The position numbers were made by a program, and so were the translations under genes. The notes under the pieces were generated by a model. It was not told where the DNA came from. It saw nothing but the letters and a program-made list of their open reading frames with translations, and ran no database searches. A DNA stretch of 64,000 nt from a phage: the sequence record PZ379177.1. The stretch is one strand, 5' to 3'. Shown in pieces: positions 44,149 through 58,316 of the stretch (within the stretch, counting starts at the first letter, position 1; each line of letters starts with the position of its first letter).

Positions 44149-44307
44149 TGTTGACGTAAATTTACGAAAAATAAAACTGAAAATCAGTTTAATTAAAGTG
44201 GCATTGCCGCCATAGTTTTTAGTTGCTACTGGCGGCGACTGAAGGCATAATTAAGTTATCCCAAACGGGGAATATAAAATAAACTAATTTATTTAAGGAC
44301 TGTGAAT

Positions 44308-45147
44308 ATGGCCGAAGCAATCAAAGTATTATCTAAAGAAGAAAAACAAGCAGCCGCAGCAGAACGTCGTCGCGTGGCTGAAGAAAAACGCCTGGCTAAA
44401 AAGAAAGAAGCCGAAGAAAAACGCCAGAAGCGTGAGCAGGAAAAACAAGCCAAGCGTGAAGAAGCTGCGCTGAAACGCAAGCAAGCTGCTGATGAGAAGG
44501 CTCAGAAGCGTGCTGAAGAAGCAGCTAAGAAAGCTAAAGAGCGTGCAGAAAAGGCTGCCGCTAAGAAGGCAGAGCGTGAAGCCGCTAAAGCCGCTAAAGA
44601 AATTGAAAAGGCAAAGGCGAAAGAAGAAGCCAAGCGCCTGAAAGCTGAGCAGGCTGCGGCCAAGAAAGCTGAGCGTGATCAAGCCCGTGCTGCAGCGAAG
44701 GCCGAAAAAGAGAAGGCAAAAGAAGAAGCTAAAGCGAAACGCAAGGCAGAGCGTGAAGCTGCTAAGATTGCGGCGAAAGAAGCTGCAGAACAGCAGAAAG
44801 AACAGCGTAAGAAAGAAGCTGAAGAACGTCGCAAAGCCATCGCAGAACGTAAGGCTGCTAAAAAGGCAAACGGTCAGCGTCGTGCAAAAGCCACTCACTT
44901 CATCTACACTGGCAATGGCCTGAGCCAGCCGCAAGAGCATTCCACCCGTGGACGCGTTCTGGCGGCGATCAAAGAAGGCGAAGTTGGCGTGGCGCAGTCT
45001 ATCGATGAGCTGGGCGAAAAAGTTAAAGATCAACTGTTTGGCGCTTCCGTTCGCTCCTACCTGAGCAAGCTGGAAGAGATGGGCCACATCGAGTTTGTCG
45101 ATGTTGAATCCAATGACGATGCCGAAGACGGTGATCAAGCGGAATAA
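44308..45147 (+). CDS. Lys/Ala/Glu-rich coiled-coil protein with globular C-terminal domain
   Basis: about 190 aa of KAE low-complexity repeat, then a non-repetitive 80-aa C-terminus; RBS AAGGA before ATG at 44308. Confidence 0.5.
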   Translation: MAEAIKVLSKEEKQAAAAERRRVAEEKRLAKKKEAEEKRQKREQEKQAKREEAALKRKQAADEKAQKRAEEAAKKAKERAEKAAAKKAEREAAKAAKEIEKAKAKEEAKRLKAEQAAAKKAERDQARAAAKAEKEKAKEEAKAKRKAEREAAKIAAKEAAEQQKEQRKKEAEERRKAIAERKAAKKANGQRRAKATHFIYTGNGLSQPQEHSTRGRVLAAIKEGEVGVAQSIDELGEKVKDQLFGASVRSYLSKLEEMGHIEFVDVESNDDAEDGDQAE

Positions 45148-45175: not shown

Positions 45176-45203
45176 GACCCACACTTGTTGTGGGTCTTTT
45201 TTC
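45176..45203 (+). terminator. rho-independent terminator
   Basis: hairpin GACCCACACTTGTTGTGGGTC followed by TTTTTTCG. Confidence 0.5.
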
Positions 45204-45281: not shown

Positions 45282-46277
45282 ATGAACATGAAACAACCTG
45301 TAATGATTATCGGCGGCGGCTTGGCAGGACTTATTACCGCGTGTCACTTCCCGAACTCTATTGTGTACGAAGCAGGGGAGCGAGCGCCACAGCACAAGGC
45401 GCTGCTACGCTTTCGCGGCGAAGAAGTAAGCCGTATTACCGGAATACCTTTTAAGGCCGTGACAGTTGACAAGGCTGTGTATTTTCGCGGTAACTACTAC
45501 CACGACCATTGCCCAATTAACCTTGCAAATATGTATTCCATGAAGGTCACCAATCAGTTTGGCAGCCGTTCAATCATGAAGCTTAAGACTGCAACGCGTT
45601 ATATTGCGCCTGATGACTTTTATGATCAGCTTGTCGACAAACTGGGTGACCGCATATTCTTTAATACTCCGGTTGATACTCTTTGCGGCTATAGCGAGAC
45701 GCCAATCATCAACACGTCGCCGCTGCCAGTAATGATGAAGCTTGCTGGGATTGATCAAAAGCTTGATTTCTCATTTGATAAAGCAAACATTCGCGTTTAC
45801 CGCTTTAAGATTAAACGTAAGTGTGATTTGTATCAGACAATTTACTTCCCTGACTACTCCGTCAGAACTTACCGCGCATCAATTACTGGTGACACACTTA
45901 TCATTGAAACCATTCCTTTGGTCAGCGTGAGTGAAGCTGCAGTTGAAGCCGCTGGCGGCATCACTCGTTACCGTGACATGAAGCTGCGCGCAGAAGTCGA
46001 CGAAGTGTTGACAGCCTTTGGCCTCTCATGGAGTGACATCGCTCTTGAAGAAGTTGAAAAGGTCGACCAGAAATATGGCAAGATTGTCGACATTCCGAAA
46101 GACTTGCGACACGCCCTACTCCTGCAGCTGACCATGGATTTAAACGTGTTTAGTGTCGGTCGATTTGCTACCTGGCGCAACATTTTGCTTGATGACGTCG
46201 CTCATGACCTTGTTGAAGTTGAAAAACTCATCAAAGCAAATAACTATCAAAAATTTGCTTATATTGCTAATAAATAA
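45282..46277 (+). CDS. FAD/NAD(P)-binding oxidoreductase (putative)
   Basis: N-terminal dinucleotide-binding motif MIIGGGLAGL. Confidence 0.5.
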   Translation: MNMKQPVMIIGGGLAGLITACHFPNSIVYEAGERAPQHKALLRFRGEEVSRITGIPFKAVTVDKAVYFRGNYYHDHCPINLANMYSMKVTNQFGSRSIMKLKTATRYIAPDDFYDQLVDKLGDRIFFNTPVDTLCGYSETPIINTSPLPVMMKLAGIDQKLDFSFDKANIRVYRFKIKRKCDLYQTIYFPDYSVRTYRASITGDTLIIETIPLVSVSEAAVEAAGGITRYRDMKLRAEVDEVLTAFGLSWSDIALEEVEKVDQKYGKIVDIPKDLRHALLLQLTMDLNVFSVGRFATWRNILLDDVAHDLVEVEKLIKANNYQKFAYIANK

Positions 46278-46342
46278 TTTGCTTTCTGCTTCAATGGGCG
46301 TATACTTTAATCATTGAAGCAGAACTCATAGAGGAAACGAAA

Positions 46343-46789
46343 ATGAAACGAATCACTGGAATCGCGCTTGCCGCGACTGCTATTCTCGGCACCATGTATA
46401 TGGAAGCGACTGAAGCCGCTGTCCGTACTTCCGATTCAATCGCTGTTTACGATTGTGAAGCGATGGACGGTAAGACCGCAGCAACGACTGGTGCAAAGAT
46501 TACCACTTACATCGGTGTGAATGAGCAAGAAGGTCTGAATATTCAGATTCAGGGATTCACGGGAAAAGGTGTCAACCGGACTCCGTGGATGCAACGTTTC
46601 ACTTTCGTCCAGCCTCGTTCAACTGGCGGCTTTATCAACCTGATTGGTGAAAACCGTTCTGGTGCAGAAATCTTTACATCAATGAGTTCTAATAATGAAC
46701 CAAAGAAAAGTTTTCAGTTGCTTTATAACGCACAATTCGTTTATCATTGCGTTTTCTCTGGTGATCAGCAACTGGTAAATTACCGTTAA
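46343..46789 (+). CDS. secreted protein of unknown function
   Basis: N-terminal signal-peptide-like segment MKRITGIALAATAILG. Confidence 0.45.
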   Translation: MKRITGIALAATAILGTMYMEATEAAVRTSDSIAVYDCEAMDGKTAATTGAKITTYIGVNEQEGLNIQIQGFTGKGVNRTPWMQRFTFVQPRSTGGFINLIGENRSGAEIFTSMSSNNEPKKSFQLLYNAQFVYHCVFSGDQQLVNYR

Positions 46790-46802
46790 TAGGATAATTA
46801 AA

Positions 46803-47576
46803 ATGAAAGTTGAATTAGTAAGATACACCCAAGATGCACTTGAACTTCTGCTGGAAACAAAGAACACGCGCATGACTGGCAAGCCTGTCTCTGAGATGAC
46901 AGAGTCAGAGAAACAAGAGCACTGGCGATATATGCTTGACACCATCAAGTCACCTTTTGACTTTGTGGACTATATCTTTGACATCACCGACGTGTCTAAG
47001 AACATGACCCATCAAATGGTGCGCACCCGCACAGGCGCATATCAAGAGCGCACCAGTCGCGCTCAGGAGTCGTCAGCGTTTGATGCGATTCGTCCGAAGG
47101 CTTTTGAACATCCTGAAGGGTCCACAAGCGTGCTTGGCGAAAAGTGGGATGATGCCATGGCGACTATTGACGCAATCTATCAAGAGTTGCGCGCGGCGGG
47201 TGCAGAAATCCAAGATGCGCGTGGCGTCCTGCCTTCGAATATGCAAACGCACATCATGGCCAAGTTCAACTTGCGCACGCTGCAACAAATGGCATCCAAC
47301 CGCCTCTGCACGCGCACTCAAGGCGAGTACCAAAACGTATTTCGCGCAATGGTTGCTGAAGTTCTTAATGTGCACCCGTGGGCAAACCCTCTCTTACAGC
47401 CGCTGTGCATCGGTATGGGTAAGTGCGCATTCCCTCGTCACGGTAAGGCCCATTGCCCTTGGTATCGTGATTGGATGGATACCACTGCACAGCAAGAAGA
47501 ATTACGCATCCAGTTTTGGGATGCCGCGCCAATCACCAATAATCCAGTTGCCAAAGATGGAGTATCAAAAGGATGA
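46803..47576 (+). CDS. ThyX-like flavin-dependent thymidylate synthase homolog (putative)
   Basis: overall resemblance to ThyX; the RHR-x7-S signature region reads RTRTGAYQERTSR, so the His appears replaced. Confidence 0.45.
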   Translation: MKVELVRYTQDALELLLETKNTRMTGKPVSEMTESEKQEHWRYMLDTIKSPFDFVDYIFDITDVSKNMTHQMVRTRTGAYQERTSRAQESSAFDAIRPKAFEHPEGSTSVLGEKWDDAMATIDAIYQELRAAGAEIQDARGVLPSNMQTHIMAKFNLRTLQQMASNRLCTRTQGEYQNVFRAMVAEVLNVHPWANPLLQPLCIGMGKCAFPRHGKAHCPWYRDWMDTTAQQEELRIQFWDAAPITNNPVAKDGVSKG

Positions 47577-48421
47577 AAACCTTAAACATTTTTGATTTAG
47601 ACGGCACCATATTTAATGACGCTTGGCGTTTACAATACATCGATAAAGAAAACAAGAACTATGATGGCTATCACGAGCGATTGACTCATGATGATCACTT
47701 TCCTAATATAGCTTCGCAAGTAGGCTGGTCACTAAGTGAAGGCGCTGTTGAGTTCTGGACAGCGCGACCTAACAAGTGGCGTGCGACTACAACTAAGAAG
47801 TTGGAAGATACTTTCGGATGTATGCCTGGCGTAATCATACGCATGCGCGGCGATGATGATTTGCGTAGCGCGGCAGCATTGAAAGCAGATTACATGCGTC
47901 GACTCCCTTCAGGCTATGATCAGGTGTATGTGTACGACGACCGCGCAGACGTTTTGGATGCCATGATCATTGAAGCGCGTCCAAAGACTGGCGTCACGTT
48001 CCGATTCTACCTTTGCACCAATGGTAGCTTCACGGAATACCACACACTTTTTAACCGCTCTAATAAAGCGAAAGTGCCTACTACGCAGGACACGCTGGGA
48101 GATTCGTTAGAAGCAACCAAGCCTGCCACCGCCGCCGATATTCTTGATGCGATGGCCGCGACCTTCCGTGAGCGCAACGCCGTTTATGGCGATAACGCTG
48201 TGATGGTAGGTCAGGTTATGCAGGTGCTTTTCCCTAATGGCGTAACGTTGAAAACGCCGGAAGACTACCACATGTGGCATCTGTTCGAGCTTAAGATTGT
48301 CAAGCTTACACGCTTTGCAATCAGCGGCCTGAAGCACGAAGACTCTATACACGATGATGGTGTTTACAGCGCCATGTGTGAACGTCTTGTCAACACCCAT
48401 AATATTAATTTCAATAAATAG
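47573..48421 (+). CDS. HAD-superfamily hydrolase fused to C-terminal domain of unknown function
   Basis: HAD motif I IFDLDGTIFN near N-terminus; ATGA overlap with upstream gene. Confidence 0.55.
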   Translation: MKTLNIFDLDGTIFNDAWRLQYIDKENKNYDGYHERLTHDDHFPNIASQVGWSLSEGAVEFWTARPNKWRATTTKKLEDTFGCMPGVIIRMRGDDDLRSAAALKADYMRRLPSGYDQVYVYDDRADVLDAMIIEARPKTGVTFRFYLCTNGSFTEYHTLFNRSNKAKVPTTQDTLGDSLEATKPATAADILDAMAATFRERNAVYGDNAVMVGQVMQVLFPNGVTLKTPEDYHMWHLFELKIVKLTRFAISGLKHEDSIHDDGVYSAMCERLVNTHNINFNK

Positions 48422-48485
48422 TTTACTTGTGCGTTTCGATGAGTTATATTTATCTCATCGAAACGAAGTCCAAAAGGATAAATAA

Positions 48486-49169
48486 ATGAAAAAAGTAATT
48501 GTTGTAACTGGCTGCAATTCCGGTCTTGGTAAATCCATTTTTGACACCCTTGGTGCTTACGGTCATGAAGTTGTCGGTATTGATTTGGAGAACGGCTATG
48601 ACATCCGTAACGCGAAACAGATGAAAGAGCTTCTCTCTCAATACGACGTAGAAGGCTTGATCAACTGCGCTGGCGTCAACTCCAACAACTGGTTCGAAGA
48701 TGTTAACTACGAAGAGTTCAATCGCGTTATGCACACCAACGCCTTCTCTTTCGTCAACACGACTCAGGCCGCGCTGAAAAGTCTTATTGACAACAAAGGT
48801 TTTGTGATCAACATCGTTTCCAACGCTGCGCATATTCCTATGACGTCCAGCTTGTGTTATAATGCATCCAAGGCTGCTGCGCTTATGATTAGCAAGCAGA
48901 TGGCTCACGAGCTTACGCCTAAGTACGGAATCACGGTATTCTCTATTAGTCCTAACAAGCTACGTGGTACTGGCATGTCCAAACAGATTGAAGATGCTGT
49001 TTGCGCGACTCGCGGCTGGACTCCTGAGTATGCTGCTGAATACCAGAAAAAGGCGTTGATGAACGGATTGGAGACTGAGCCGCAAGTAATTGCTGACTTC
49101 ATTCGCCATATCTTAATTACGGGCGCATGGCGCTTTATGTCTGGTACTGATATTCCATTTGGGAAATAA
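48486..49169 (+). CDS. short-chain dehydrogenase/reductase (SDR)
   Basis: cofactor motif VTGCNSGLGKS and catalytic YNASKAA (YxxxK). Confidence 0.7.
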   Translation: MKKVIVVTGCNSGLGKSIFDTLGAYGHEVVGIDLENGYDIRNAKQMKELLSQYDVEGLINCAGVNSNNWFEDVNYEEFNRVMHTNAFSFVNTTQAALKSLIDNKGFVINIVSNAAHIPMTSSLCYNASKAAALMISKQMAHELTPKYGITVFSISPNKLRGTGMSKQIEDAVCATRGWTPEYAAEYQKKALMNGLETEPQVIADFIRHILITGAWRFMSGTDIPFGK

Positions 49170-49171
49170 AT

Positions 49172-49342
49172 CATGACTATCAAAGTTGTTGTAGAAGTGA
49201 TTGGCGACGTAGCAGAAGTGAAGATTGATCAAGAAGGTGTTGGATTTGAAGTAATAAGAATCGAAAACGCAAAGATTAACCACGAGCGCGTCGGTGCCAT
49301 TGAGACTTATTCCATCGAAGGCAACACAGTAATTAATCAATA
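49172..49342 (+). CDS. small hypothetical protein (56 aa), not in ORF track
   Basis: ATG 2 nt after upstream stop; product MTIKVVVEVIGDVAEVKIDQEG... Confidence 0.3.
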
Positions 49343-49363
49343 ATATTTAATTAAGGAAACAAA

Positions 49364-49915
49364 ATGCCACATTTTAAAATTGAACAAATCGCCCTGTCAA
49401 TTCCAGGTGCTCAGCGCGCACAGAATTTCCTGGCTAAAATCGGCCTGACAGAATGGTTCCATGATCACGTTGTTGCTACTGGTCGCGTATTTGAAGCTGA
49501 TGTCTTTAAGGGTCAGCGCGGCGATTGCACCAACGAAGCTGACTTGCGCTTCAACTATCAGGCTGGCAACGGCACCGATGGCGGCGCTGGTAAGCCTCTT
49601 GAGCTTGAAATTCTTGACTATACAAAAGGTTGCAACTGGATTCACGAAAACATCGAATACATCGATGCGCACGACAATCAGGTTAGCCATCTTGGTATGC
49701 ACGTGACTGCCGCTGAACTTGCTGAATGGCGCAAGTTCTTTAAAGAAGAAGGCATTCAGGTTGCGCAGGAAGTCGTAACCGACTCTCACACCAACCCAAA
49801 TATTGCTGGTCAGCGTCGTTACAACTATGTGATCTTTGATACGCGTGAGATCATCGGCGTTGATTTGAAGTTTATCGTGCGCTTGAATCAAGACGGTACT
49901 CCGTACACTGTATAA
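49364..49915 (+). CDS. hypothetical protein (possibly VOC/glyoxalase-like)
   Basis: 183-aa ORF with RBS; fold assignment is a guess. Confidence 0.4.
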   Translation: MPHFKIEQIALSIPGAQRAQNFLAKIGLTEWFHDHVVATGRVFEADVFKGQRGDCTNEADLRFNYQAGNGTDGGAGKPLELEILDYTKGCNWIHENIEYIDAHDNQVSHLGMHVTAAELAEWRKFFKEEGIQVAQEVVTDSHTNPNIAGQRRYNYVIFDTREIIGVDLKFIVRLNQDGTPYTV

Positions 49916-49931
49916 CGAATCGTGAATCTGT

Positions 49932-49957
49932 GGCCGTCCTAATGGGCGGCCTTTTTG
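49932..49957 (+). terminator. rho-independent terminator
   Basis: hairpin GGCCGTCCTAATGGGCGGCC followed by TTTTTG. Confidence 0.5.
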
Positions 49958-49969
49958 TAGGAGGCCAAT

Positions 49970-50512
49970 GTGTTATTTCTCCCTTATGACTTCGAAACAA
50001 CCGGATTGACCGTGCACCCGAAAGCGCCGCTTGGGATGCAGCCGCGCCCTATTGAATTTGCAGGTCTGTTGACAGACGGCAAAGAGATTATTGAAACGTT
50101 TGAATTCATAATTAATCCTGAAATCGTGATTGAAGAAATTATCACAAAGATTACCGGATTAACAAATGAAGACCTTGAGTGCAATCCACCATTCATCAAT
50201 TTTGTCCCGCAGCTAAAAGAAATCTTCAAGAAGACGGCTGCCACTATCGCGCACAACCATGCGTTCGATAAAAACATTCTTGATTATGCACTACAGCGCG
50301 AAGGACTTACGCTTGATGATGTTAATTTTCCAGAAATAAACATTTGTACAGTTGAGCAAACCTTGCCTATTTTTGGCCGAAGAGTTAAGCTTCAAGAGCT
50401 GTATGAATTATATTTCGGAAAATATGAACAGAAACACCGTGCATTAGACGACGTAATATTACTGCACAAAGTCTGCCAACAAATTGGCGTATATGACATC
50501 TGGAGTAAATAA
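49970..50512 (+). CDS. DnaQ-like 3'-5' exonuclease (DEDD family)
   Basis: Exo I motif YDFETTGL; GTG start with GGAGG RBS; directly upstream of polymerase gene. Confidence 0.7.
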   Translation: MLFLPYDFETTGLTVHPKAPLGMQPRPIEFAGLLTDGKEIIETFEFIINPEIVIEEIITKITGLTNEDLECNPPFINFVPQLKEIFKKTAATIAHNHAFDKNILDYALQREGLTLDDVNFPEINICTVEQTLPIFGRRVKLQELYELYFGKYEQKHRALDDVILLHKVCQQIGVYDIWSK

Positions 50513-53409
50513 TGTTTCCACAATTGAGAGTTCGCAGCGGTTACACGTTCAAAGAAGTTTATGGACGGCATCCTGAAATTATAGCACGGCTCAAAGAGTT
50601 GGGCTGCGAAGTCGCGGCATTAGTTGATAACAACACATGGGGTCACGTTCGCTGGGAAAAGGAATGCCAGAAAAATGATATTAAGCCTATGTTTGGAATG
50701 GAGATTCCAATCATCGACCCTGATGCGGACCCGAAAAAGGGATTCAAACCGAAGGCTTGGATATTGGCCCTTGACTTAAAATCTTTTTACAACGCTACAA
50801 CACTTGCAACGCAGCGTGGTGGTCTTACCCGTGCAGAGTTCGGGGCGCTTGATGGCGTCGTTAAATTCTGTGGCGGTGCCGTGGAACTGCTGCGGCCAGA
50901 GGACTACGACTATATAGACGTCAACCCATCGTCGTTCCTTTTGGCAAAGCGCCAGGCGTTGGCTCATCGTAGCAGTGGAAGGCCGCTGGTTTTAACCGGA
51001 TACAATCACATGCCTTCTCCTGAGCACGTTGACTTCGCTTATGCGTGGGAAGTGCGCGACACGGTTAAGCCGCATTGCATCGTTGACGTTGAAGACTTGC
51101 GCAAACAGCTTAAAGGCATCTTGACTGAAGATGAGCTTGATCAGGCAACGGCCAATGCCGTGGACATCGCGAACGGCATAGTCGGACTTGACTTGAAATT
51201 GCGTAAGGCACCGATTATTCACCTTGCTGGTGACATGGTAAAGCTTGCTCGCGAGGGGATGGAGTACCGTCTAAAAGCAGGTCACATCAAAGAATGGACT
51301 CAGGAATATGAGGACCGCTTCAACGAAGAAATTCACCAGATTCAGCTGAAAGATTTCGACTCATACTTTCTGGTGGTAGCGGACCTTGTACGATTCGCAA
51401 AAACAAAAATGCTAGTCGGTCCTGCGCGCGGCTCATCGGCTGGTTCACTTGTTTGCTATTGCCTCGGCATCACGGAAGTGGACCCAATACCGTATAAACT
51501 GCTTTTTGCCCGATTCATCGACGTAAGCCGCGCCGACCTTCCTGACATCGACATCGACTTTGAAGATACCAAACGCTATATGGTGTTTGATTATCTTAAA
51601 GAGAAATACGGCGAAATGAACGTTGCAAAGCTTGGCAACATTAACACGCTTAAGGCCAACTCAGTAATGGCGCAGGTTGGTAAGAAGTTCAACATTGGAT
51701 ACCACGAAACGGCCAACATTAAAAACGCACTGCTTGAATACTCATCCGGTGACGCCCGTTATGGCCACGGCCTGGAGGATACCTTTGCCACAACAACCAC
51801 GGGTCAAGAGTTTGTGGCCAAATATCCTGATGCCGCGCGTTGCATGGGCGACCTTGAGATTCACCCGTCTCACACAGGTGTTCACGCAGCGGGAATCATT
51901 GTGTGTAATGACCCAATCTCTGATTATTGTACTGTAACTGCAGAAGGGATTGCACAAATTGATAAGCCTGACAGCGAATACCTTAACCTTTTGAAGCTTG
52001 ATGCGCTGGGCCTTCGTACTCTCGGCATTATTTCTGATACAGGCGTTATTGATGCTGAAACGCTCTACGGCATCAAGCTTGATGATCAAAGCGTCCTTGA
52101 CATTCTTAACGAAAACAAGATGTCAGGCATCTTCCAGTTTGAAGGCGACGCTGTACGCTCAGTAACAAACTTTGTGCACGTCGATAACTTTAACAAAATC
52201 GACAACCTGACGGCTTTGGGTCGACCTGGCCCGTTGTCATCCGGTATGGCCCAGAAATACATTGAACGCGCAGCAGGGCGTGCGCCGATTGAATACGACG
52301 TGCCGCAGCTTGAGCCGTACTTAAAAGAGACTTACGGCGTGTTCCTTTACCAAGAGCAAATCATGGCCGTGGTTAAAGAGATTGGTTCATTTGACTGGGC
52401 GAAAACATCCGCTGTGCGTAAGGCAATGTCAGGCCGTAAGGGTGAGGAATACTTTAACAAGCTTGGCGAAGACTTTGTTGCAGGCGCAATAAATAACGGC
52501 GTACCGGAAGCGGATGCAAGAAAGCTTTGGCAGGCGATGGCTACGTTCGGGTCATGGGGCTTTAACAAGTCGCACTCCGTGTCATACGCGGTCGTGACCT
52601 ACTGGACCTTGTGGCTTAAACGACACTACCCGTTGGAATTTGCCGCTGCTTGCTTACGCGCTGCTAAGGACGAAGACCAGACGATTGCGATATTACGTGA
52701 ACTTGCGAAGGAAGGCGTGGATTATGTGCCAATCGACCCTGATCACTCTTCAATGAACTGGACCATCGCTAACGGAAAGCTAATCGGCGGCATCATGAAC
52801 GCGAAAGGGTACGGAATGGTGAAGGCGATGAAGTATATCGAAGCACGTGAAGCCGGAACCTTAACGCAAAAGCAAAAGGACGCATTGGCCAATGCTGAAG
52901 TAAAATACGGCGACCTTACAGAGATGCACACAAAGTTCGGCTGGGCGTATAATGACCCGTATCTGATTGGTGTGACGTCCGGCGCTTCAATACGCCAGAT
53001 GAAGGAAGTCGGTGATGACGAGCGCGCAATAGTAATCGGCAAGTTGACAAAGAAAGTGCTTGCGGACGAGAACGAAGCAACACGCATCCGTAAACGACTT
53101 GAGCGCGGCATCTATACAAAGCACGGCAAGCTTAAAAAGGGTCTTCAAGTTGATGGCCGCTACGCAGAGTTTGACCAGTACGGGAACAAGCTTGAGACTC
53201 AGTTCATCGACCTTATGTGCAAAGACGACTCGACCGACTCGCCAATGCGCTTCAGGATTCGCCCAGAGAAGTTCCAGAAGTACGGGAAGTACATTGCTGA
53301 AAACGTCGGGAACGGCGCATTCTTCCTGATGAAAGGTCGCAAGCTTGAAGGCATTGACATGTTCATCGTTGACGTGATCAAACAGGTGTATCCAGATGGC
53401 AACAAATAA
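50512..53409 (+). CDS. DNA polymerase III alpha (DnaE)-like replicative polymerase
   Basis: 965 aa; N-terminal PHP-like start, central GPARGSSAGSLVCYCLGITEVDP and DIDIDFE motifs. Confidence 0.7.
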   Translation: MFPQLRVRSGYTFKEVYGRHPEIIARLKELGCEVAALVDNNTWGHVRWEKECQKNDIKPMFGMEIPIIDPDADPKKGFKPKAWILALDLKSFYNATTLATQRGGLTRAEFGALDGVVKFCGGAVELLRPEDYDYIDVNPSSFLLAKRQALAHRSSGRPLVLTGYNHMPSPEHVDFAYAWEVRDTVKPHCIVDVEDLRKQLKGILTEDELDQATANAVDIANGIVGLDLKLRKAPIIHLAGDMVKLAREGMEYRLKAGHIKEWTQEYEDRFNEEIHQIQLKDFDSYFLVVADLVRFAKTKMLVGPARGSSAGSLVCYCLGITEVDPIPYKLLFARFIDVSRADLPDIDIDFEDTKRYMVFDYLKEKYGEMNVAKLGNINTLKANSVMAQVGKKFNIGYHETANIKNALLEYSSGDARYGHGLEDTFATTTTGQEFVAKYPDAARCMGDLEIHPSHTGVHAAGIIVCNDPISDYCTVTAEGIAQIDKPDSEYLNLLKLDALGLRTLGIISDTGVIDAETLYGIKLDDQSVLDILNENKMSGIFQFEGDAVRSVTNFVHVDNFNKIDNLTALGRPGPLSSGMAQKYIERAAGRAPIEYDVPQLEPYLKETYGVFLYQEQIMAVVKEIGSFDWAKTSAVRKAMSGRKGEEYFNKLGEDFVAGAINNGVPEADARKLWQAMATFGSWGFNKSHSVSYAVVTYWTLWLKRHYPLEFAAACLRAAKDEDQTIAILRELAKEGVDYVPIDPDHSSMNWTIANGKLIGGIMNAKGYGMVKAMKYIEAREAGTLTQKQKDALANAEVKYGDLTEMHTKFGWAYNDPYLIGVTSGASIRQMKEVGDDERAIVIGKLTKKVLADENEATRIRKRLERGIYTKHGKLKKGLQVDGRYAEFDQYGNKLETQFIDLMCKDDSTDSPMRFRIRPEKFQKYGKYIAENVGNGAFFLMKGRKLEGIDMFIVDVIKQVYPDGNK

Positions 53410-55412: not shown

Positions 55413-55676
55413 ATGGTACGCATCCTTGAACGTTACAAAAATGAAGCTACTGGCGCAATCGCTTTCAAACGTCTTTTGGTCAAAGAAATTGACGGGATGT
55501 TCCGCGTTGTTAAAGAGTTTGATTATGGCAACGGTGCTGGGGTGAATACCGTTATTATGCCTGGCATCAAGGCGTATAAAACCTTGAAAGGCGCTGAGAA
55601 GGCTTTGGCGGCTTGGAAGCCTGAACGTTATCAAATGACCCGTGTTGAAGGGCTAATGCAAGAAGGTAAAATATGA
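55413..55676 (+). CDS. hypothetical protein
   Basis: 87-aa ORF. Confidence 0.4.
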   Translation: MVRILERYKNEATGAIAFKRLLVKEIDGMFRVVKEFDYGNGAGVNTVIMPGIKAYKTLKGAEKALAAWKPERYQMTRVEGLMQEGKI

Positions 55677-56230
55677 GCAATATTAATTGGGAAGATGATT
55701 TGCCGCAGGTCGCTCCTGAGAGCATTCAAGAGCGCCTTGCGCGCTTAGTATCTGAACTGGCAGAACGCCAAGAAGCTTTGACAGAGCTTGAAGATGAAGC
55801 TGATATGCAAAAGCAGCGAATCAGTGAAATCAAAACTGTTCTGCTTCCTGGCGTTATGGATGAGCTTGGCGTGTCCGAAATCAAGCTTGAGGACAAGACC
55901 AAAATCAAGGTCGAGTCCAAGGTGAATGCTTCAATCAAGAAAGAAAACGAATTAAAAGTTTTCGATTGGCTTGTCAACAACGGTTACGGCGGCTTGATCA
56001 AGTCCAGCGTCACGGCTGAGTTCGGTCGCGAAGAAATCGAACAGGCGCAAGAGATTGTTGCCGCGCTGCGTGAAGATGGTGTTGAAGTCACATTGAAACA
56101 AGGCGTTCATTCTGCTACACTGAAGTCATTTGTAAAAGAACAGCTGGAAGCAGGCAATCCAGTTAGTGAAGATATTAGCGTTTTTGAATACAAAGAAGCT
56201 AAAATAACCTTGCCTAAAAGCAAAAAGTAA
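55673..56230 (+). CDS. hypothetical coiled-coil protein
   Basis: 185-aa acidic ORF. Confidence 0.4.
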   Translation: MSNINWEDDLPQVAPESIQERLARLVSELAERQEALTELEDEADMQKQRISEIKTVLLPGVMDELGVSEIKLEDKTKIKVESKVNASIKKENELKVFDWLVNNGYGGLIKSSVTAEFGREEIEQAQEIVAALREDGVEVTLKQGVHSATLKSFVKEQLEAGNPVSEDISVFEYKEAKITLPKSKK

Positions 56231-56289
56231 TTTAACCTTTATCTTGAAATCAGGTTGCCACGAAACTTGATACTATAGGAAAATATCAA

Positions 56290-57150
56290 ATGTCTAAGAA
56301 AGAAACTACCGAAGTTGCAGTGAAAAACACCCAGATGTCCGCTATGGCTGATTTTGTCGACATGACCGATTTTGGCGCTGGTTTTGAAGGTGCCGATGCC
56401 GATGCATATGCCATTCCTTTTATCGTCGTGCTGCAGAAGATGTCTCCTATGGTCGACGAAGATGATCCAAAACACGTTCCTGGCGCAAAAGCTGGCATGC
56501 TTTACAACACCGTTACTGGTGAGTTGTATGACGGCAAGAAAGGCGTGCAGATCATTCCTTGCGCATTCAAACGTACCTTCATTCTTTGGGGCGGTCGCGA
56601 GTCCGACGATAAAGGCTTTAAAGGTGAATTTACCAAAGAGCACGTTGATGCAGAAGTAGCGGCAGGCCGCGCTGTTGAGATCAACGGTAAAGTATTTGTG
56701 CCGGACGAAAACGGCAAGGTGCACGAGAAGAAGTCTCCTTACTACGCAGATACACGTAACCACTTCGTAATTCTGTTGAACGAAGAAACGGGTGAATTTG
56801 GTAGCGCAATGCTGTCTTTGACTTCTTCCATGATCAAGCCGTCTCGCATGCTGATGACCGCTCTGCAGCAGAAGAAAGTTCAGACTCCGCAAGGTCTGAA
56901 AACGCCGCCGACCTTTATGAACATCGTTCGCATGGGTACTGCATCCCAGTCCAAAGACGGCAACACCTGGTCCGTTCTTAAGTTTGAGCTGGAAGGTCTG
57001 GTGCAGGACAAAGGTCTGTACGAAGTCGCCAAGGCATTCCACAACGACGTAGTTGGCGGCAACGTTAACATCGACCGCAGCAAGCAAGAAGAAGCAAGTG
57101 GCGCTGCTGGCCCTGTCAATGAAACTCCGACCGACGCAGAAGAGTTTTAA
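56290..57150 (+). CDS. possible ssDNA-binding protein
   Basis: acidic C-terminal tail ending in Phe (TPTDAEEF), as in T7 gp2.5-type SSBs; replication-module context. Confidence 0.35.
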   Translation: MSKKETTEVAVKNTQMSAMADFVDMTDFGAGFEGADADAYAIPFIVVLQKMSPMVDEDDPKHVPGAKAGMLYNTVTGELYDGKKGVQIIPCAFKRTFILWGGRESDDKGFKGEFTKEHVDAEVAAGRAVEINGKVFVPDENGKVHEKKSPYYADTRNHFVILLNEETGEFGSAMLSLTSSMIKPSRMLMTALQQKKVQTPQGLKTPPTFMNIVRMGTASQSKDGNTWSVLKFELEGLVQDKGLYEVAKAFHNDVVGGNVNIDRSKQEEASGAAGPVNETPTDAEEF

Positions 57151-57207: not shown

Positions 57208-57726
57208 ATGATAGAAAGAATTGTACCGCTCCTGAAGATTCTGGCCCTTGTTGGCGCATTTGCCGCTGGATCATACGTTGAAGACCTGCAGCAAACCAAC
57301 GCATCACTGGCCAAGGATAATCAATATCTGACATCGCTTAATGAGCGTAAGGACAAGATAAATGCACTCGAAGAGCAAATTGCATCTTTACAGGTTGAAT
57401 CGGCATCGGCATATGAGAAGGGTCGCCAGGAAGCGCAACTGGTTGCTGATGACACTATTGCTAGTTACAAGTCTGGGAATATCAAGCTGCGCGAGCAACT
57501 CAGCTGCTCCCGTGAGTTACTCAGGAGTATGCCCGACTCTGCGACCACTGGACGCCTCTCTATCCCAGAAGGAAACTGTGGACTATCAGAAGAAGATGTC
57601 AGATTTCTTGTTCAGTTCGCCGCAGAAACAAACCGATTAAAAGAGAAGGTTAATAGCTTGATTGATACTTATAATCAGGCTAAAATAAAAATCGATCAAT
57701 TCAATGCATCAAAGGAAAATAAATGA
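57208..57726 (+). CDS. i-spanin (Rz-like)
   Basis: N-terminal TM helix IVPLLKILALVGAFAAG followed by long coiled coil; contains nested o-spanin ORF in another frame. Confidence 0.5.
   Translation: MIERIVPLLKILALVGAFAAGSYVEDLQQTNASLAKDNQYLTSLNERKDKINALEEQIASLQVESASAYEKGRQEAQLVADDTIASYKSGNIKLREQLSCSRELLRSMPDSATTGRLSIPEGNCGLSEEDVRFLVQFAAETNRLKEKVNSLIDTYNQAKIKIDQFNASKENK
57413..57640 (+). CDS. o-spanin (Rz1-like lipoprotein), nested within i-spanin gene
   Basis: MRRVARKRNWLLMTLLLVTSLGISSC signal with lipobox ISS-C; short Pro-rich mature part. Confidence 0.45.
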   Translation: MRRVARKRNWLLMTLLLVTSLGISSCASNSAAPVSYSGVCPTLRPLDASLSQKETVDYQKKMSDFLFSSPQKQTD

Positions 57727-58316
57727 AACAGATTTATGCAAACATTCGCCAGTGGGCTTCTGACCGTAACATCATCCAAGGTTGCGACCTTAAGGACCAA
57801 TACCCGAAGCTTATCAGCGAGTTTGGGGAGTTAACCGACCACGTTGATCAACTCCATGACCTTGTGTTCTTTGACCCTGAAATCGGATATACAGAGCAGG
57901 CCATTTGTGATTTGCAAGCCGCAATCAAGGACGACATCGGTGATTGCCTTGTTGTGTTAACTATTCTTGCCGCGCAAAATGGTGCAAAAATCGAAGACAT
58001 CAACGGCGGCGGTTGCGCTGACAAAGGCGCTCACCCTCATTCCTTTATCCTTCGCTTGGCGAAGACTCTCGGACGGCTTGGTGACGCCATTGCTAAAAAT
58101 CAAAGCATGGATATTGATGTCACTATCATGGCCGCAGTCGATTATCTTTCCGGCGTAGCGCATGATTATGGACTTCGACTGTCTGATTGCGCTCAAGCCG
58201 CCTATGAAGACATCAAGGACCGTAAAGGTGTGATGTACAACGGAACGTTTATCAAATCGACTGATCAGGCTTATGCCTATGCGCTGGAACAAGTGATGAA
58301 TAAGGAGTTTGAGTGA
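57723..58316 (+). CDS. MazG-like nucleotide pyrophosphohydrolase (putative)
   Basis: helical protein with EFGELTDH and DDIGDCLVVL motifs resembling MazG EExxE/D boxes. Confidence 0.35.
   Translation: MKQIYANIRQWASDRNIIQGCDLKDQYPKLISEFGELTDHVDQLHDLVFFDPEIGYTEQAICDLQAAIKDDIGDCLVVLTILAAQNGAKIEDINGGGCADKGAHPHSFILRLAKTLGRLGDAIAKNQSMDIDVTIMAAVDYLSGVAHDYGLRLSDCAQAAYEDIKDRKGVMYNGTFIKSTDQAYAYALEQVMNKEFE

What the first reader, a model, noticed from the sequence alone, without database searches (positions are those of the whole stretch)
45282..49915. Cluster of metabolic enzymes in the replication module: possible nucleotide or DNA modification pathway
Consecutive rightward genes encode a FAD/NAD(P)-binding oxidoreductase, a secreted protein, a ThyX-like protein, a HAD hydrolase with an extra C-terminal domain, an SDR, a 56-aa protein and a further unknown protein. 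The ThyX-like protein appears to have the RHR signature altered to RTR. A divergent ThyX-like enzyme next to redox enzymes and a phosphatase hints at synthesis of a non-canonical nucleotide rather than simple dTMP supply, though each call rests on short motifs only.
Basis: inference. Interest (0 to 1): 0.5.

Follow-up and report, generated by a model that had tools for sequence, protein, structure and literature searches.

The report
Candidate thymidine hypermodification gene cluster
A terminator-bracketed seven-gene operon in this Wifcevirus-type coliphage is built around an unusual ThyX-like enzyme and an always-adjacent uncharacterised flavoprotein, and it is the best candidate for the so-far unassigned genes that chemically modify thymine in the DNA of these phages and their Pseudomonas relatives, shielding it from restriction enzymes.

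Summary
The seven genes exist exactly as described. They form one unit bracketed by two terminator-like hairpins. The window is a Wifcevirus (93-96% identical to FEC19, WFH and Bas99).

Four parts form a conserved module: a UGM/PPOX-like flavoprotein (P1), a ThyX-like protein, a PNKP-type HAD phosphatase and a DUF6378-like helical domain. In 79 of 80 viral contigs P1 sits directly upstream of the ThyX-like gene, ahead of a DnaQ-like exonuclease and PolIII-alpha. SDR and the VOC-like protein are an optional pair. The secreted protein and the 56-aa ORF are lineage-specific inserts.

The ThyX-like protein keeps all dUMP-binding arginines. It lacks both canonical histidines (H53 to I, H59 to F), the RHR histidine and Y91.

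Published work shows that Pbunavirus relatives replace about a quarter of T, at TG, with sugar-derived bases; the preprint names no genes. BASEL found Wifceviruses restriction-resistant "without known mechanism".

New here:
- No TG-containing 6-bp palindrome is avoided (0/16, against 20/48 without TG).
- The same holds in an unrelated podovirus that shares only P1, ThyX-like, exonuclease and polymerase.
- It does not hold in T7 or Bas97.
- It explains resistance to EcoCFT_II (CACAG) and sensitivity to EcoP1 (AGACC).

The cluster is probably (about 0.55) a thymidine-hypermodification pathway. The chemistry is inferred, not shown.

The parts
45176..45196 (+). Terminator-like hairpin (8-bp stem, then TTTTTT) closing the upstream K/E-rich gene. 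It marks the 5' boundary of the unit.
   Evidence: A terminator is annotated at the same position before the P1 homologue in Pseudomonas phage DP1 and Xanthomonas phage XcP1.
45282..46277 (+). P1: a 331-aa FAD-binding protein with a UGM/protoporphyrinogen-oxidase-like fold and many invariant Arg/Lys. It belongs to an uncharacterised family (phrog_4828, no Pfam match) and is the constant upstream partner of the ThyX-like gene.
46343..46789 (+). P2: a 148-aa protein with a signal-peptide-like N-terminus. It is an insert seen only in the Wifcevirus records examined and is probably not part of the pathway.
   Evidence: no family match. No homologue in 80 module-carrying loci. The N-terminus was read by eye.
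46803..47576 (+). ThyX-like flavoenzyme (257 aa). The dUMP-binding arginines are kept. H53 is I48, H59 is F54, RHR is RTR, S88 is T84 and Y91 is A87. Four conserved Cys (C169, C202, C208, C218).
   Evidence: (below the TIGR02170 equivalog cut-off, 71.3 < 87.9).
47573..48115 (+). P4 N-terminal domain and linker. The domain is a HAD phosphatase of the T4 PNKP 3'-phosphatase type (DLDGT) with no kinase domain. Bases 47577-48121 are exchanged as a cassette between Wifcevirus strains.
   Evidence: 5uj0, target TM-score 0.73; the only stretch with no nucleotide match to Bas99 across 44-51 kb; no P-loop.
48116..48421 (+). P4 C-terminal four-helix domain. It shows weak DUF6378 similarity, is far more conserved than the HAD part, and is a separate ORF in many related contigs.
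48486..49169 (+). Classical short-chain dehydrogenase/reductase (TGxxxGxG, YxxxK). Optional tailoring gene that always travels with P7.
   Evidence: It co-occurs with the VOC-like gene in about a third of module loci, always between the P4 C-terminal domain and the exonuclease. Also present in XcP1.
49173..49343 (+). 56-aa ORF with no family match. Seen only in the Wifcevirus records examined.
   Evidence: Annotated in Bas99.
49364..49915 (+). P7: a 183-aa protein that is weakly VOC/glyoxalase-like, with invariant H109, H113, H142, E80 and E82. Optional partner of the SDR.
   Evidence: Glyoxalase_4, E = 0.09; annotated as glyoxalase/dioxygenase in some phage records.
49932..49951 (+). Terminator-like hairpin (8-bp stem with 7 G-C pairs, then TTTTT). 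It marks the 3' boundary of the unit.
   Evidence: A terminator is annotated after the VOC gene in XcP1.
49970..53409 (+). DnaQ-like 3'-5' exonuclease (49970-50512) and PolIII-alpha replicase (50512-53409). They are always linked to the module.
   Evidence: Together with P1 and ThyX-like they are the only proteins shared with podovirus Ss1.
57723..58316 (+). MazG-like pyrophosphatase. A possible accessory for the dNTP pool, conserved in Pbunavirus F8 but not detected in Ss1.

Best explanation
The flagged genes form one operon. Its conserved core is the P1 flavoprotein, the ThyX-like enzyme, the HAD phosphatase and the DUF6378-like domain. I propose that this core is the so-far unassigned pathway that makes the sugar-derived hypermodified thymidine found in PB1-like phages, and that this Wifcevirus carries a related modification which protects TG-containing sites from restriction.

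Proposed steps (all inferred):
1. The ThyX-like enzyme binds dUMP or dTMP and FAD. All nucleotide-binding arginines are kept. It has lost the two histidines that in canonical ThyX stack the folate and NADPH. I therefore think it does not complete ordinary reductive methylation. Instead it would produce or use the reactive 5-methylene or 5-hydroxymethyl intermediate, or accept a sugar aldehyde as the carbon donor.
2. P1 is a UGM/PPOX-like FAD enzyme rich in invariant basic residues. It would either supply or activate the sugar-derived group through flavin-N5 chemistry, or act on DNA to give the TG specificity.
3. The HAD phosphatase would remove a phosphate from a sugar-phosphate-derived side chain or from a nucleotide. 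Its cassette-like exchange between strains would vary the product.
4. SDR plus VOC would be an optional redox/isomerase tailoring pair.
5. The co-inherited PolIII-alpha/DnaQ replicase would tolerate or select the modified nucleotide.

Shown: the gene anatomy, the conservation, the active-site substitutions, the folds, the genomic TG signature and the published phenotypes. Inferred: every chemical step, and whether modification happens before or after replication.
For: 1. Relatives are modified and the genes are unassigned. Pbunavirus F8 and 14-1 virion DNA contains T derivatives of 362 and 390 Da that replace about a quarter of T, at TG. The preprint describes Pbunavirus as a phage family that does not carry genes previously implicated in genome modification, and it names no biosynthetic genes. 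F8, 14-1 and DP1 carry P1, ThyX-like and HAD+C-terminal-domain homologues in the same order.

2. Wifceviruses are restriction-resistant. [quoted passage not shown] I verified that EcoCFT_II recognises CACAG/CTGTG, which holds two TG. It is the only 5-mer that reproduces BASEL's counts in both Bas99 (92) and Bas97 (115). AGACC/GGTCT has no TG.

3. The genome carries a TG signature. In the window, 0 of 16 TG/CA-containing 6-bp palindromes are avoided, against 20 of 48 without TG (Fisher p = 0.0013). TGATCA occurs 53 times against 1, 0 and 1 for AGATCT, GGATCC and CGATCG. GATC has T as its 5' flank in 72% of cases. The same pattern holds in Cronobacter podovirus Ss1 (0/16 vs 12/41; 82% T flank). 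F8 shows a non-significant trend in the same direction (1/15 vs 11/39, p = 0.14). The unmodified controls do not show it: T7 6/16 and Bas97 7/16.

4. Ss1 and the window share only P1, ThyX-like, exonuclease and PolIII-alpha at phmmer E < 1e-4.

5. P1 is directly upstream of ThyX-like in 79 of 80 IMG/VR loci. HAD and the P4 C-terminal domain follow in about 74 of 80.

6. The ThyX-like protein scores below the NCBIfam equivalog cut-off. It lacks H53, H59, H79 and Y91 while keeping R78, R80, R90, R147, R174, Q75 and E86.

7. The predicted modified fraction fits. TG accounts for 26.4% of all T in the window, matching the 'one quarter of T' measured in Pbunavirus.

8. There is a precedent for FAD oxidoreductases acting in T hypermodification on DNA: PaMx11 gp47.
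Against: - There is no direct link between any gene here and a modified base. Wifcevirus virion DNA has not been analysed in anything I could read.
- The synteny may reflect common descent of a replication module rather than a shared pathway.
- The nearest 150 ThyX representatives almost all share the I/L/V and F substitutions, so this could be a large but functional thymidylate synthase lineage.
- F8 and 14-1 carry different modifications, yet their P1 (97%) and ThyX-like (94%) proteins are nearly identical.
- TG-only modification does not explain the resistance to EcoRI (GAATTC) and EcoRV (GATATC). F8 DNA is cut by EcoRI.
- TG specificity implies a step at the DNA level, but no glycosyltransferase, DNA kinase or TET/JBP enzyme was found in the 20 window proteins I scanned.
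- The palindrome signature in F8, the phage with measured TG modification, is only a non-significant trend (p = 0.14).
- Rhizobium phage RHph_Y65, which also has P1 and ThyX-like, shows no site avoidance at all and is uninformative.
Confidence: 0.55

Rival explanations
1. This is ordinary nucleotide supply. The ThyX-like protein is a divergent but genuine flavin-dependent thymidylate synthase that feeds a very fast replication cycle. P1 is a dedicated flavin reductase or accessory to it. The HAD and DUF6378-like parts are a nucleotidase or NTP-pyrophosphatase that shapes dNTP pools. SDR and VOC are auxiliary metabolic genes. The thymine modification and the TG protection are encoded elsewhere or do not exist in this phage.
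For: - The Pfam Thy1 match is strong, and all dUMP-binding arginines plus Q75 and E86 are conserved.
- The module always sits in the replication block next to the polymerase, as nucleotide-supply genes often do.
- About 75% of T remains canonical in Pbunavirus.
- P1 and ThyX-like are nearly identical in F8 and 14-1 although their modifications differ.
- Wifceviruses are reported to have an extremely short latent period, which would favour extra dTMP supply.
Against: - The E. coli host already supplies dTMP through ThyA (established knowledge).
- The protein falls below the ThyX equivalog cut-off and has lost both histidines of the folate/NADPH site.
- No canonical ThyX is known to me to need a UGM-like partner, yet P1 is adjacent in 79 of 80 loci.
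- This reading leaves the measured Pbunavirus modification, the restriction resistance and the TG signature shared with Ss1 (which shares only these genes) without any candidate genes.
Confidence: 0.3
2. The cluster does modify something, but the target is not DNA thymine. The UGM-like flavoprotein, phosphatase, SDR and VOC would remodel a host sugar nucleotide or cell-envelope precursor (for example O-antigen or LPS sugars) during infection, and ThyX would be an unrelated neighbour.
For: - P1's best structural match is UDP-galactopyranose mutase, and one phage record annotates it that way.
- SDR plus a phosphatase is a typical sugar-nucleotide toolkit (inference).
- These phages depend on O-antigen.
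- P2 looks secreted.
Against: - P1 is tied to ThyX-like and the replicase across hosts with unrelated envelopes, including Pseudomonas, Xanthomonas, Rhizobium, Cronobacter and many metagenomic contigs.
- SDR and VOC are optional and P2 is lineage-specific.
Confidence: 0.08
3. The genes are an accidental collection of unrelated 'moron' genes that share no function.
For: - P2 and the 56-aa ORF are lineage-specific inserts.
- PHROGs labels the SDR as a moron/auxiliary metabolic gene.
Against: - The order P1, ThyX-like, HAD, P4 C-terminal domain, then optionally SDR and VOC, is conserved in 74-79 of 80 divergent viral contigs at 41-60% ThyX identity.
- The unit is bracketed by terminators.
Confidence: 0.04

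Closest known systems
Flavin-dependent thymidylate synthase ThyX (PF02511 / TIGR02170; e.g. T. maritima TM0449, M. tuberculosis ThyX)
   Same: - The Thy1 domain is matched end to end (E = 3.5e-30).
- The residues corresponding to R78, R80, R90, R147, R174, Q75 and E86 are conserved.
- FAD use and a dUMP-like substrate are therefore likely.
   Different: - It scores below the equivalog cut-off (71.3 against 87.9).
- H53 is Ile, H59 is Phe, H79 is Thr, S88 is Thr, Y91 is Ala and W181 is Gly.
- It has a roughly 60-aa C-terminal extension, and four conserved cysteines (three in the extension, plus C169).
- A UGM-like flavoprotein is always adjacent.
Thymidine hypermodification pathways of phages M6, ViI, PhiW-14, SP10 and PaMx11 (ThyA-like dUMP hydroxymethylase, 5-HMUDK kinase, aGPT-Pplase transferase, and tailoring enzymes including an FAD lyase)
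   Same: - The proposed outcome is the same: partial, sequence-context-dependent replacement of T by a C5-methyl-substituted base that blocks restriction.
- An FAD oxidoreductase takes part in at least one known pathway.
- The genes lie close to the replication genes.
   Different: - No ThyA-family hydroxymethylase, P-loop DNA kinase or aGPT-Pplase was detected among the 20 window proteins scanned, and none is annotated in Bas99.
- The carbon-installing enzyme would be of the ThyX type.
- The appended group in the relatives is sugar-derived rather than amino-acid- or polyamine-derived.
Pbunavirus (F8, 14-1) TG-specific hypermodified thymidine (Yee et al., bioRxiv 2025.03.31.646159; cited as Nat Microbiol 2026)
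   Same: - P1, ThyX-like and HAD+C-terminal-domain homologues occur in the same order upstream of the exonuclease and PolIII-alpha.
- The TG-linked signature is seen in the window. TG makes up 26.4% of T, against about a quarter of T modified in Pbunavirus.
   Different: - The Wifcevirus additionally carries SDR, VOC, P2 and the 56-aa ORF.
- It resists EcoRI in vivo, whereas F8 DNA is cut by EcoRI. The modified contexts or the chemistry therefore probably differ.
- No nucleoside analysis exists for Wifcevirus.
UDP-galactopyranose mutase and the protoporphyrinogen-oxidase / amine-oxidase flavoenzyme superfamily
   Same: - It has an N-terminal GxGxxG and a C-terminal GRFAxW...LLDDV FAD motif.
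   Different: - Sequence identity is only 17%, and there is no Pfam GLF or amine-oxidase match.
- P1 is 130-180 residues shorter than its best structural matches.
- It has its own set of invariant Arg/Lys residues.
- Its genomic partner is a ThyX-like enzyme, not glycan genes.
T4 polynucleotide kinase/phosphatase (Pnkp)
   Same: The P4 N-terminal domain matches the T4 Pnkp 3'-phosphatase domain structurally (5uj0, target TM-score 0.73). It has the DxDGT nucleophile motif.
   Different: There is no kinase domain and no P-loop, so the database label 'polynucleotide kinase/phosphorylase' is misleading. The phosphatase is fused instead to a DUF6378-like four-helix domain.

Membership tests
ThyX / flavin-dependent thymidylate synthase | Thy1 domain (PF02511) above the gathering score | tested here: met
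   105.7 bits against a cut-off of 24.8.
ThyX / flavin-dependent thymidylate synthase | Score above the NCBIfam TIGR02170 equivalog cut-off (functional equivalence) | tested here: not met
   71.3 bits against a cut-off of 87.9.
ThyX / flavin-dependent thymidylate synthase | ThyX signature RHRx7SxR(Y) | tested here: not met
   The sequence is R74-T-R76 ... T84-S-R86-A87, so His is Thr, Ser is Thr and Tyr is Ala. This holds across the PB1-like supergroup. The wider subfamily has R[T/H/Q/S/N]R.
ThyX / flavin-dependent thymidylate synthase | The two histidines near the folate/NADPH stacking site (T. maritima H53 and H59) | tested here: not met
   They are I48 and F54. The positions are I/L/V and F in nearly all of the 150 nearest representatives. 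The role of H53 is recalled from the literature and was not re-read here.
ThyX / flavin-dependent thymidylate synthase | dUMP-binding arginines (T. maritima R78, R80, R90, R147, R174) | tested here: met
   They correspond to R74, R76, R86, R140 and R167, which are invariant or nearly invariant in alignments A2 and A4.
ThyX / flavin-dependent thymidylate synthase | Catalyses dUMP to dTMP with CH2-THF and NADPH | not testable with these tools
   This needs an enzyme assay or thyA complementation.
UDP-galactopyranose mutase (GLF) | Sequence membership (Pfam GLF) and a UDP-sugar binding site | tested here: not met
   No Pfam family at E <= 0.1 and no PDB sequence hit. Only the fold is similar, at 17% identity.
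UDP-galactopyranose mutase (GLF) | UGM-type three-dimensional fold with an FAD-binding Rossmann domain | tested here: met
   [not shown]
T4-type polynucleotide kinase/phosphatase | HAD 3'-phosphatase domain with a DxDxT motif | tested here: met
   DLDGT at residue 8. The 5uj0 match has a target TM-score of 0.73. Pfam HAD_PNKP gives 24.3 bits, just below the 27.6 cut-off, and homologues pass it.
T4-type polynucleotide kinase/phosphatase | P-loop 5'-kinase domain | tested here: not met
   No P-loop motif and no kinase domain. The C-terminal part is a four-helix DUF6378-like domain.
Known thymidine hypermodification system (5-hmdU route) | ThyA-family dUMP hydroxymethylase, 5-HMUDK P-loop kinase and aGPT-Pplase transferase | tested here: not met
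   None was detected among the 7 flagged proteins and 13 other window proteins scanned with Pfam or PHROGs. None is annotated in Bas99. Small ORFs were not all scanned.
Base-J-like route (T-dioxygenase + glycosyltransferase) | TET/JBP Fe/2OG dioxygenase and a DNA glycosyltransferase | tested here: inconclusive
   None was found in the proteins scanned. Not every window ORF was scanned.
Classical SDR | TGxxxGxG cofactor motif and a YxxxK catalytic motif | tested here: met
   TGCNSGLG at residue 8 and YNASK at residue 125. PF00106 scores 110 bits.
VOC / glyoxalase superfamily | Paired beta-alpha-beta-beta-beta modules with a His/Glu metal site | tested here: inconclusive
   Pfam Glyoxalase_4 gives E = 0.09, below its cut-off. 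There is no PDB sequence hit even with a profile. His and Glu residues are invariant.

The most novel reading that the evidence does not exclude
A ThyX-like enzyme and an obligately paired UGM-like flavoprotein together form a previously unknown, flavin-based route that attaches a sugar-derived group to C5 of (deoxy)uridylate or thymidylate. It would need no ThyA-type hydroxymethylase, DNA kinase or aGPT-Pplase. Because the two TG-signature phages share only P1, ThyX-like, the DnaQ-like exonuclease and PolIII-alpha, the TG specificity would be imposed either by P1 acting directly on DNA or by context-dependent incorporation and proofreading by the co-inherited replicase. The latter would be the first case of a sequence-specific DNA hypermodification written by a polymerase.
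Probability: 0.25. Interest if true: 0.9.

Novelty: new variant of a known kind. Interest (0 to 1): 0.72.

Why it matters
Pbunaviruses are among the most used therapeutic phages for Pseudomonas aeruginosa, and their DNA was only recently found to be hypermodified. In everything I could read, the genes responsible are still unassigned. The BASEL study explicitly left Wifcevirus restriction resistance, and the contrast between EcoP1 and EcoCFT_II, unexplained.

This analysis makes both questions directly testable.
- It names a small, conserved and widespread gene set: about 1,950 homologues of P1 in public protein data, found in Pseudomonas, Escherichia, Serratia, Xanthomonas, Cronobacter and Rhizobium phages among others.
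- It predicts the motif (TG) and the modified fraction (about 26% of T).
- It predicts which restriction enzymes will and will not cut.

If the module is confirmed, it would add a new enzymology to DNA hypermodification (ThyX-type plus UGM-type flavoenzymes). It would give a sequence marker for predicting modified genomes and sensitivity to END nucleases and type IV systems in therapeutic phages. It would also offer new enzymes for making modified DNA.

Tried and rejected
- **Sequence searches that gave nothing.** PDB sequence searches for P1, P4 and P7 found nothing significant.
- **C-terminal domain of P4.** It has no Pfam match on its own. It shows no similarity to the window's MazG-like protein or to T7 gp1.7 nucleotide kinase.
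- **Looking for the gene that distinguishes F8 from 14-1.** I compared the two phages across 20 kb, since their modifications differ. Only gp070, a non-enzymatic-looking protein, and the PNKP-like linker diverge. There is no clear candidate.
- **RHR to RTR as a diagnostic marker.** Rejected, because RHR members exist within the same subfamily.
- **TT/AA-containing palindromes as a second protected class.** Rejected, because such AT-rich palindromes are rarely avoided in the control phages either.
- **Uninformative controls.** Rhizobium phage RHph_Y65 and pooled IMG/VR loci show almost no site avoidance.
- **Search for missing enzymes.** I looked for a glycosyltransferase, DNA kinase or dioxygenase in ten further window ORFs. 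I found only a MazG-like protein, two Pam3 gp33/gp34-like proteins and unknowns.
- **Tool limits.** The afdb50 fold library was unavailable. The published Nature Microbiology version of the END-nuclease paper is not held, so I cannot exclude that it names the genes.
- **Restriction data for other Wifceviruses.** The Durham-collection DNA-modification paper does not mention Wifcevirus. No paper I read reports in-vitro restriction digests or nucleoside analysis of Wifcevirus DNA.

Full report
**What the window is.** The flagged region is 93-96% identical at the nucleotide level to Escherichia phages FEC19, WFH, WFC, ECML-117 and the BASEL isolates Bas98/Bas99, so the window is a Wifcevirus-type myovirus of about 68 kb. 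Two strong terminator-like hairpins on the + strand lie at 45176-45196, just before the first gene, and at 49932-49951, just after the last. Terminators are annotated at the equivalent positions in Pseudomonas phage DP1 and Xanthomonas phage XcP1. The finding therefore corresponds to one discrete transcription unit placed directly upstream of a DnaQ-like exonuclease and a PolIII-alpha replicase.

**The individual proteins.**
- **P3.** A Thy1-domain protein (E = 3.5e-30) that scores below the ThyX equivalog cut-off (71.3 against 87.9).
- **P4.** A T4-PNKP-type HAD 3'-phosphatase domain (DLDGT; 5uj0 target TM-score 0.73) fused to a four-helix domain with weak DUF6378 similarity. It has no kinase domain, so the database label 'polynucleotide kinase/phosphorylase' is misleading.
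- **P5.** A classical SDR with intact cofactor and catalytic motifs.
- **P7.** At best weakly VOC-like, with invariant His and Glu residues.
- **P2 and the 56-aa ORF.** P2 has a signal-peptide-like N-terminus, read by eye only. Neither has a family match.

**The ThyX-like active site.** I aligned it to solved ThyX structures from T. maritima, M. tuberculosis and 6j61. The arginines that bind dUMP (R78, R80, R90, R147, R174), Q75 and E86 are all conserved. Several canonical residues are replaced: H53 by Ile, H59 by Phe, H79 (the RHR histidine) by Thr, S88 by Thr, Y91 by Ala and W181 by Gly. From my recollection of the ThyX literature, not re-read here, H53 stacks on the folate/NADPH ring.

A search of 1.84 billion representative proteins shows this is a large subfamily, not a one-off. 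Nearly all of the 150 nearest representatives have I/L/V and F at the two histidine positions. Many members, including this one, carry four conserved cysteines (C169, two residues after the R174 equivalent, plus C202, C208 and C218). A second branch lacks them.

**Conservation of the module.** Pbunaviruses (DP1, F8, 14-1) have P1, ThyX-like and HAD+C-terminal domain in the same order between the Dda-like helicase and the exonuclease/polymerase, without SDR or VOC. Xanthomonas phage XcP1 has P1, ThyX, HAD, SDR and VOC contiguously. Rhizobium phage RHph_Y65 (207 kb) has P1 within 2.5 kb of an RNR-motif ThyX. The 42-kb Cronobacter podovirus Ss1 has a P1 homologue (37% identity) overlapping the start of its ThyX-like gene, followed by a HAD-type protein.

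I then used a profile of 60 diverse subfamily members to collect 80 IMG/VR loci at 41-60% identity, from contigs of 3-75 kb, and searched them with my own profiles.
- P1 is immediately upstream on the same strand in 79 of 80.
- The HAD domain and the P4 C-terminal domain follow in about 74 of 80, often as separate ORFs.
- SDR and VOC co-occur in about a third, always between the P4 C-terminal domain and the exonuclease.
- The exonuclease and PolIII-alpha follow.
- P2 and the 56-aa ORF never appear.

In INPHARED, the genus counts for P1 hits and for close ThyX-like hits coincide: Pseudomonas 292/292, Escherichia 27/27, Serratia 9/9, Xanthomonas 6/6. More distant ThyX genes in Gordonia, Mycobacterium and archaeal viruses have no P1 counterpart.

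**What is known experimentally about relatives.** Yee et al. (bioRxiv 2025.03.31.646159, PMC12191111) showed that Pbunavirus F8 DNA resists enzymes whose sites contain TG. F8 and 14-1 contain novel thymidine derivatives of 362 and 390 Da that replace about a quarter of T. [quoted passage not shown] They stress that Pbunavirus carries none of the genes previously implicated in genome modification, and they name no biosynthetic genes. Later papers I could read add nothing on the genes. The published Nature Microbiology version is not held.

[quoted passage not shown] Their raw data give plating efficiencies of 0.3-0.9 on EcoRI and about 1 on EcoRV, EcoCFT_I and EcoCFT_II. There are no plaques at all on EcoP1_I. 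The unmodified control Bas97 drops to 1e-5 on EcoRI and 4e-7 on EcoCFT_II.

**New evidence from the sequence itself.** I counted all 64 six-base palindromes in the window. Twenty of the 48 that lack TG/CA are strongly avoided (observed/expected <= 0.2). Examples are AGCGCT (0 against about 20), CCGCGG (0 against 11), GGCGCC (0 against 13) and TCCGGA (0 against 10). None of the 16 that contain TG/CA is avoided (Fisher p = 0.0013). Within palindromes lacking TT/AA the split is 0/14 against 20/36, p = 0.0002.

The contrast is sharpest within families that share a core.
- TGATCA 53, against AGATCT 1, GGATCC 0 and CGATCG 1.
- TGGCCA 13, against 0, 3 and 0 for the other NGGCCN palindromes.
- TGTACA 12, against 0, 1 and 0 for the other NGTACN palindromes.
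- GATC is depleted overall (111 against 256 expected), and 72% of its 5' flanks are T against a 31% background.

The same signature appears in podovirus Ss1: 0/16 against 12/41, p = 0.013, with GATC at 51 against 163 expected and 82% T flanks. F8 shows a non-significant trend in the same direction (1/15 against 11/39, p = 0.14). Two unmodified coliphages avoid TG-containing palindromes as readily as others: T7 6/16 and Bas97 7/16. At phmmer E < 1e-4, Ss1 and the window share only four proteins: PolIII-alpha, the exonuclease, ThyX-like and P1. The simplest reading is that TG-containing sites are under no selection because they are chemically protected, and that this protection travels with this gene block.

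**The BASEL anomaly.** I rebuilt the Bas99 genome from three fetched pieces. It reproduces BASEL's site counts (AGACC 89, GAATTC 38, GATATC 8). The only 5-mer giving 92 sites in Bas99 and 115 in Bas97 is CACAG, so EcoCFT_II recognises CACAG/CTGTG. That site holds two TG dinucleotides. EcoP1's AGACC/GGTCT has none. EcoKI (AACN6GTGC) and the EcoAI-like EcoCFT_I (GAGN7GTCA, which reads TGAC on the other strand) also contain TG; those two site sequences are from my own knowledge. A TG-directed thymine modification therefore explains resistance to EcoCFT_II together with full sensitivity to EcoP1.

It does not explain resistance to EcoRI and EcoRV, whose sites lack TG. F8 DNA is cut by EcoRI. Either the Wifcevirus modification covers more contexts, possibly through the SDR/VOC pair that Pbunaviruses lack, or a second mechanism exists. 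This remains open.

**Most likely mechanism, and its limits.** I judge it more likely than not (about 0.55) that the core of P1, ThyX-like, HAD and the DUF6378-like domain is the hypermodification pathway, with SDR plus VOC as optional tailoring. The nucleoside masses fit a C5-methylene chemistry of the ThyX type:
- 5-hmdU + tetritol - H2O = 362 Da.
- 5-hmdU + pentose - H2O = 390 Da.
- Isobarically, reductive alkylation of dU by an aldopentose also gives 362 Da, and a C-hexosyl-dU gives 390 Da.

These sums are my arithmetic on the masses. ThyX chemistry passes through a flavin-N5 iminium and an exocyclic 5-methylene intermediate (summarised), and UGM also uses flavin N5 to form a sugar iminium (established knowledge). 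A pair of such flavoenzymes that has lost the folate-stacking histidines is therefore a chemically reasonable way to join a sugar-derived group to C5. The phosphatase would then remove a phosphate carried over from a sugar phosphate.

All of this is inference. It is also unresolved whether modification happens before or after replication. TG specificity argues for a step at the DNA level. Only P1, ThyX-like, the exonuclease and the polymerase are shared by the two signature-bearing phages, so P1 acting on DNA, or context-dependent incorporation and proofreading by the replicase, are the candidates.

Arguments against the proposal:
- The synteny could be inherited rather than functional.
- The subfamily could be a working thymidylate synthase.
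- F8 and 14-1 differ in their modification but hardly differ in P1 or ThyX-like.
- No transferase, kinase or dioxygenase was found.

The main rival, ordinary dTMP supply with accessory enzymes, gets about 0.3.

**Other structural observations.**
- The only stretch between 44 and 51 kb with no nucleotide similarity to Bas99 is 47577-48121. It runs from the start of P4 through its HAD domain and linker, while the C-terminal domain and both flanks are 94-97% identical (protein level). This is a clean cassette exchange of a kind often seen in genes under arms-race pressure.
- In 24 of the 80 related loci, a T4-endonuclease-V-family (Pyr_excise) gene sits between ThyX-like and HAD. It is absent from the window.

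**Verdict.** The cluster itself is annotated in public records, and a thymidine hypermodification is known in relatives. In the literature available to me, however, nobody has connected these genes, or Wifcevirus, to that modification. The TG avoidance signature and the explanation for the EcoCFT_II/EcoP1 contrast are new. I rate it a new variant of a known kind (thymidine hypermodification) with potentially new enzymology, interest 0.72.

Noticed in passing
whole window (1-64000): Restriction-site avoidance is strong but confined to palindromes that lack TG/CA: 20 of 48 are avoided against 0 of 16. GATC is depleted (111 observed, 256 expected), and about half of the remaining copies are TGATCA. 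CCGG-core and CTAG-core hexamers are nearly absent.
   Followed up: yes
window 47577-48121: The start of P4, its HAD phosphatase domain and linker have no nucleotide similarity to Bas99, whereas both flanks, including the P4 C-terminal domain, are 94-97% identical. This is a precise cassette swap within the genus. The two HAD types are about 55-61% identical over the whole protein.
   Followed up: partly
window 46803-47576 (ThyX-like residues C169, C202, C208, C218): Four cysteines are conserved in at least 90% of PB1-like-group homologues and in a large branch of the subfamily. One sits two residues after the R174-equivalent active-site arginine. This suggests a Zn or Fe-S site next to the active site. 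A sister branch (Ss1, Rhizobium phages) lacks them.
   Followed up: partly
IMG/VR loci, e.g. L056:4439-4999 and L055:10978-11538 (24 of 80 loci): A Pyr_excise (T4 endonuclease V family DNA glycosylase) gene sits between ThyX-like and HAD in one sub-lineage of module-carrying phages. It is absent from the window.
   Followed up: partly
BASEL raw data for Bas98-100 (relatives of the window): EcoP1_I does more than lower plating. No plaques appear at all (plating efficiency below 1e-9), far stronger than for the unmodified control Bas97 (0.002-0.02 with 27 sites). About 89 unprotected AGACC sites may suffice to explain this, but the size of the effect is unusual.
   Followed up: partly
window 44302-45147 (+), with a mirror ORF at 44329-45138 (-): A 281-aa protein has a long Lys/Glu/Ala-rich low-complexity N-terminus and a compact C-terminal domain (phrog_4765; labelled 'putative structural protein' in XcP1). 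It is conserved just upstream of P1 in PB1-like phages. The 269-aa antisense ORF is probably an artefact of the repetitive composition.
   Followed up: no
window 57723-58316: A MazG-like pyrophosphatase lies next to the DNA ligase. Its C-terminal half matches PHROG families labelled 'DNA binding protein'. It is conserved in Pbunavirus F8 (gp049) but not detected in Ss1. It could clear a competing dNTP.
   Followed up: partly
window 46343-46789 and 49173-49343: The signal-peptide-bearing 148-aa protein and the 56-aa ORF were seen only in the Wifcevirus records examined. Pbunaviruses have five unrelated small ORFs between P1 and ThyX-like instead.
   Followed up: partly
window 46803-47576, residues about 100-112: The ThyX-like protein here (257 aa) has a shorter variable loop than most Wifcevirus homologues (263-281 aa). 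Only a few database entries, such as phage ECO71P1, share this short form.
   Followed up: no
window 55673-57150: Two conserved proteins downstream of the helicases match the Pfam families 'Pam3 gp33-like' (DUF7307) and 'Pam3 gp34-like'. Their function is unknown.
   Followed up: no
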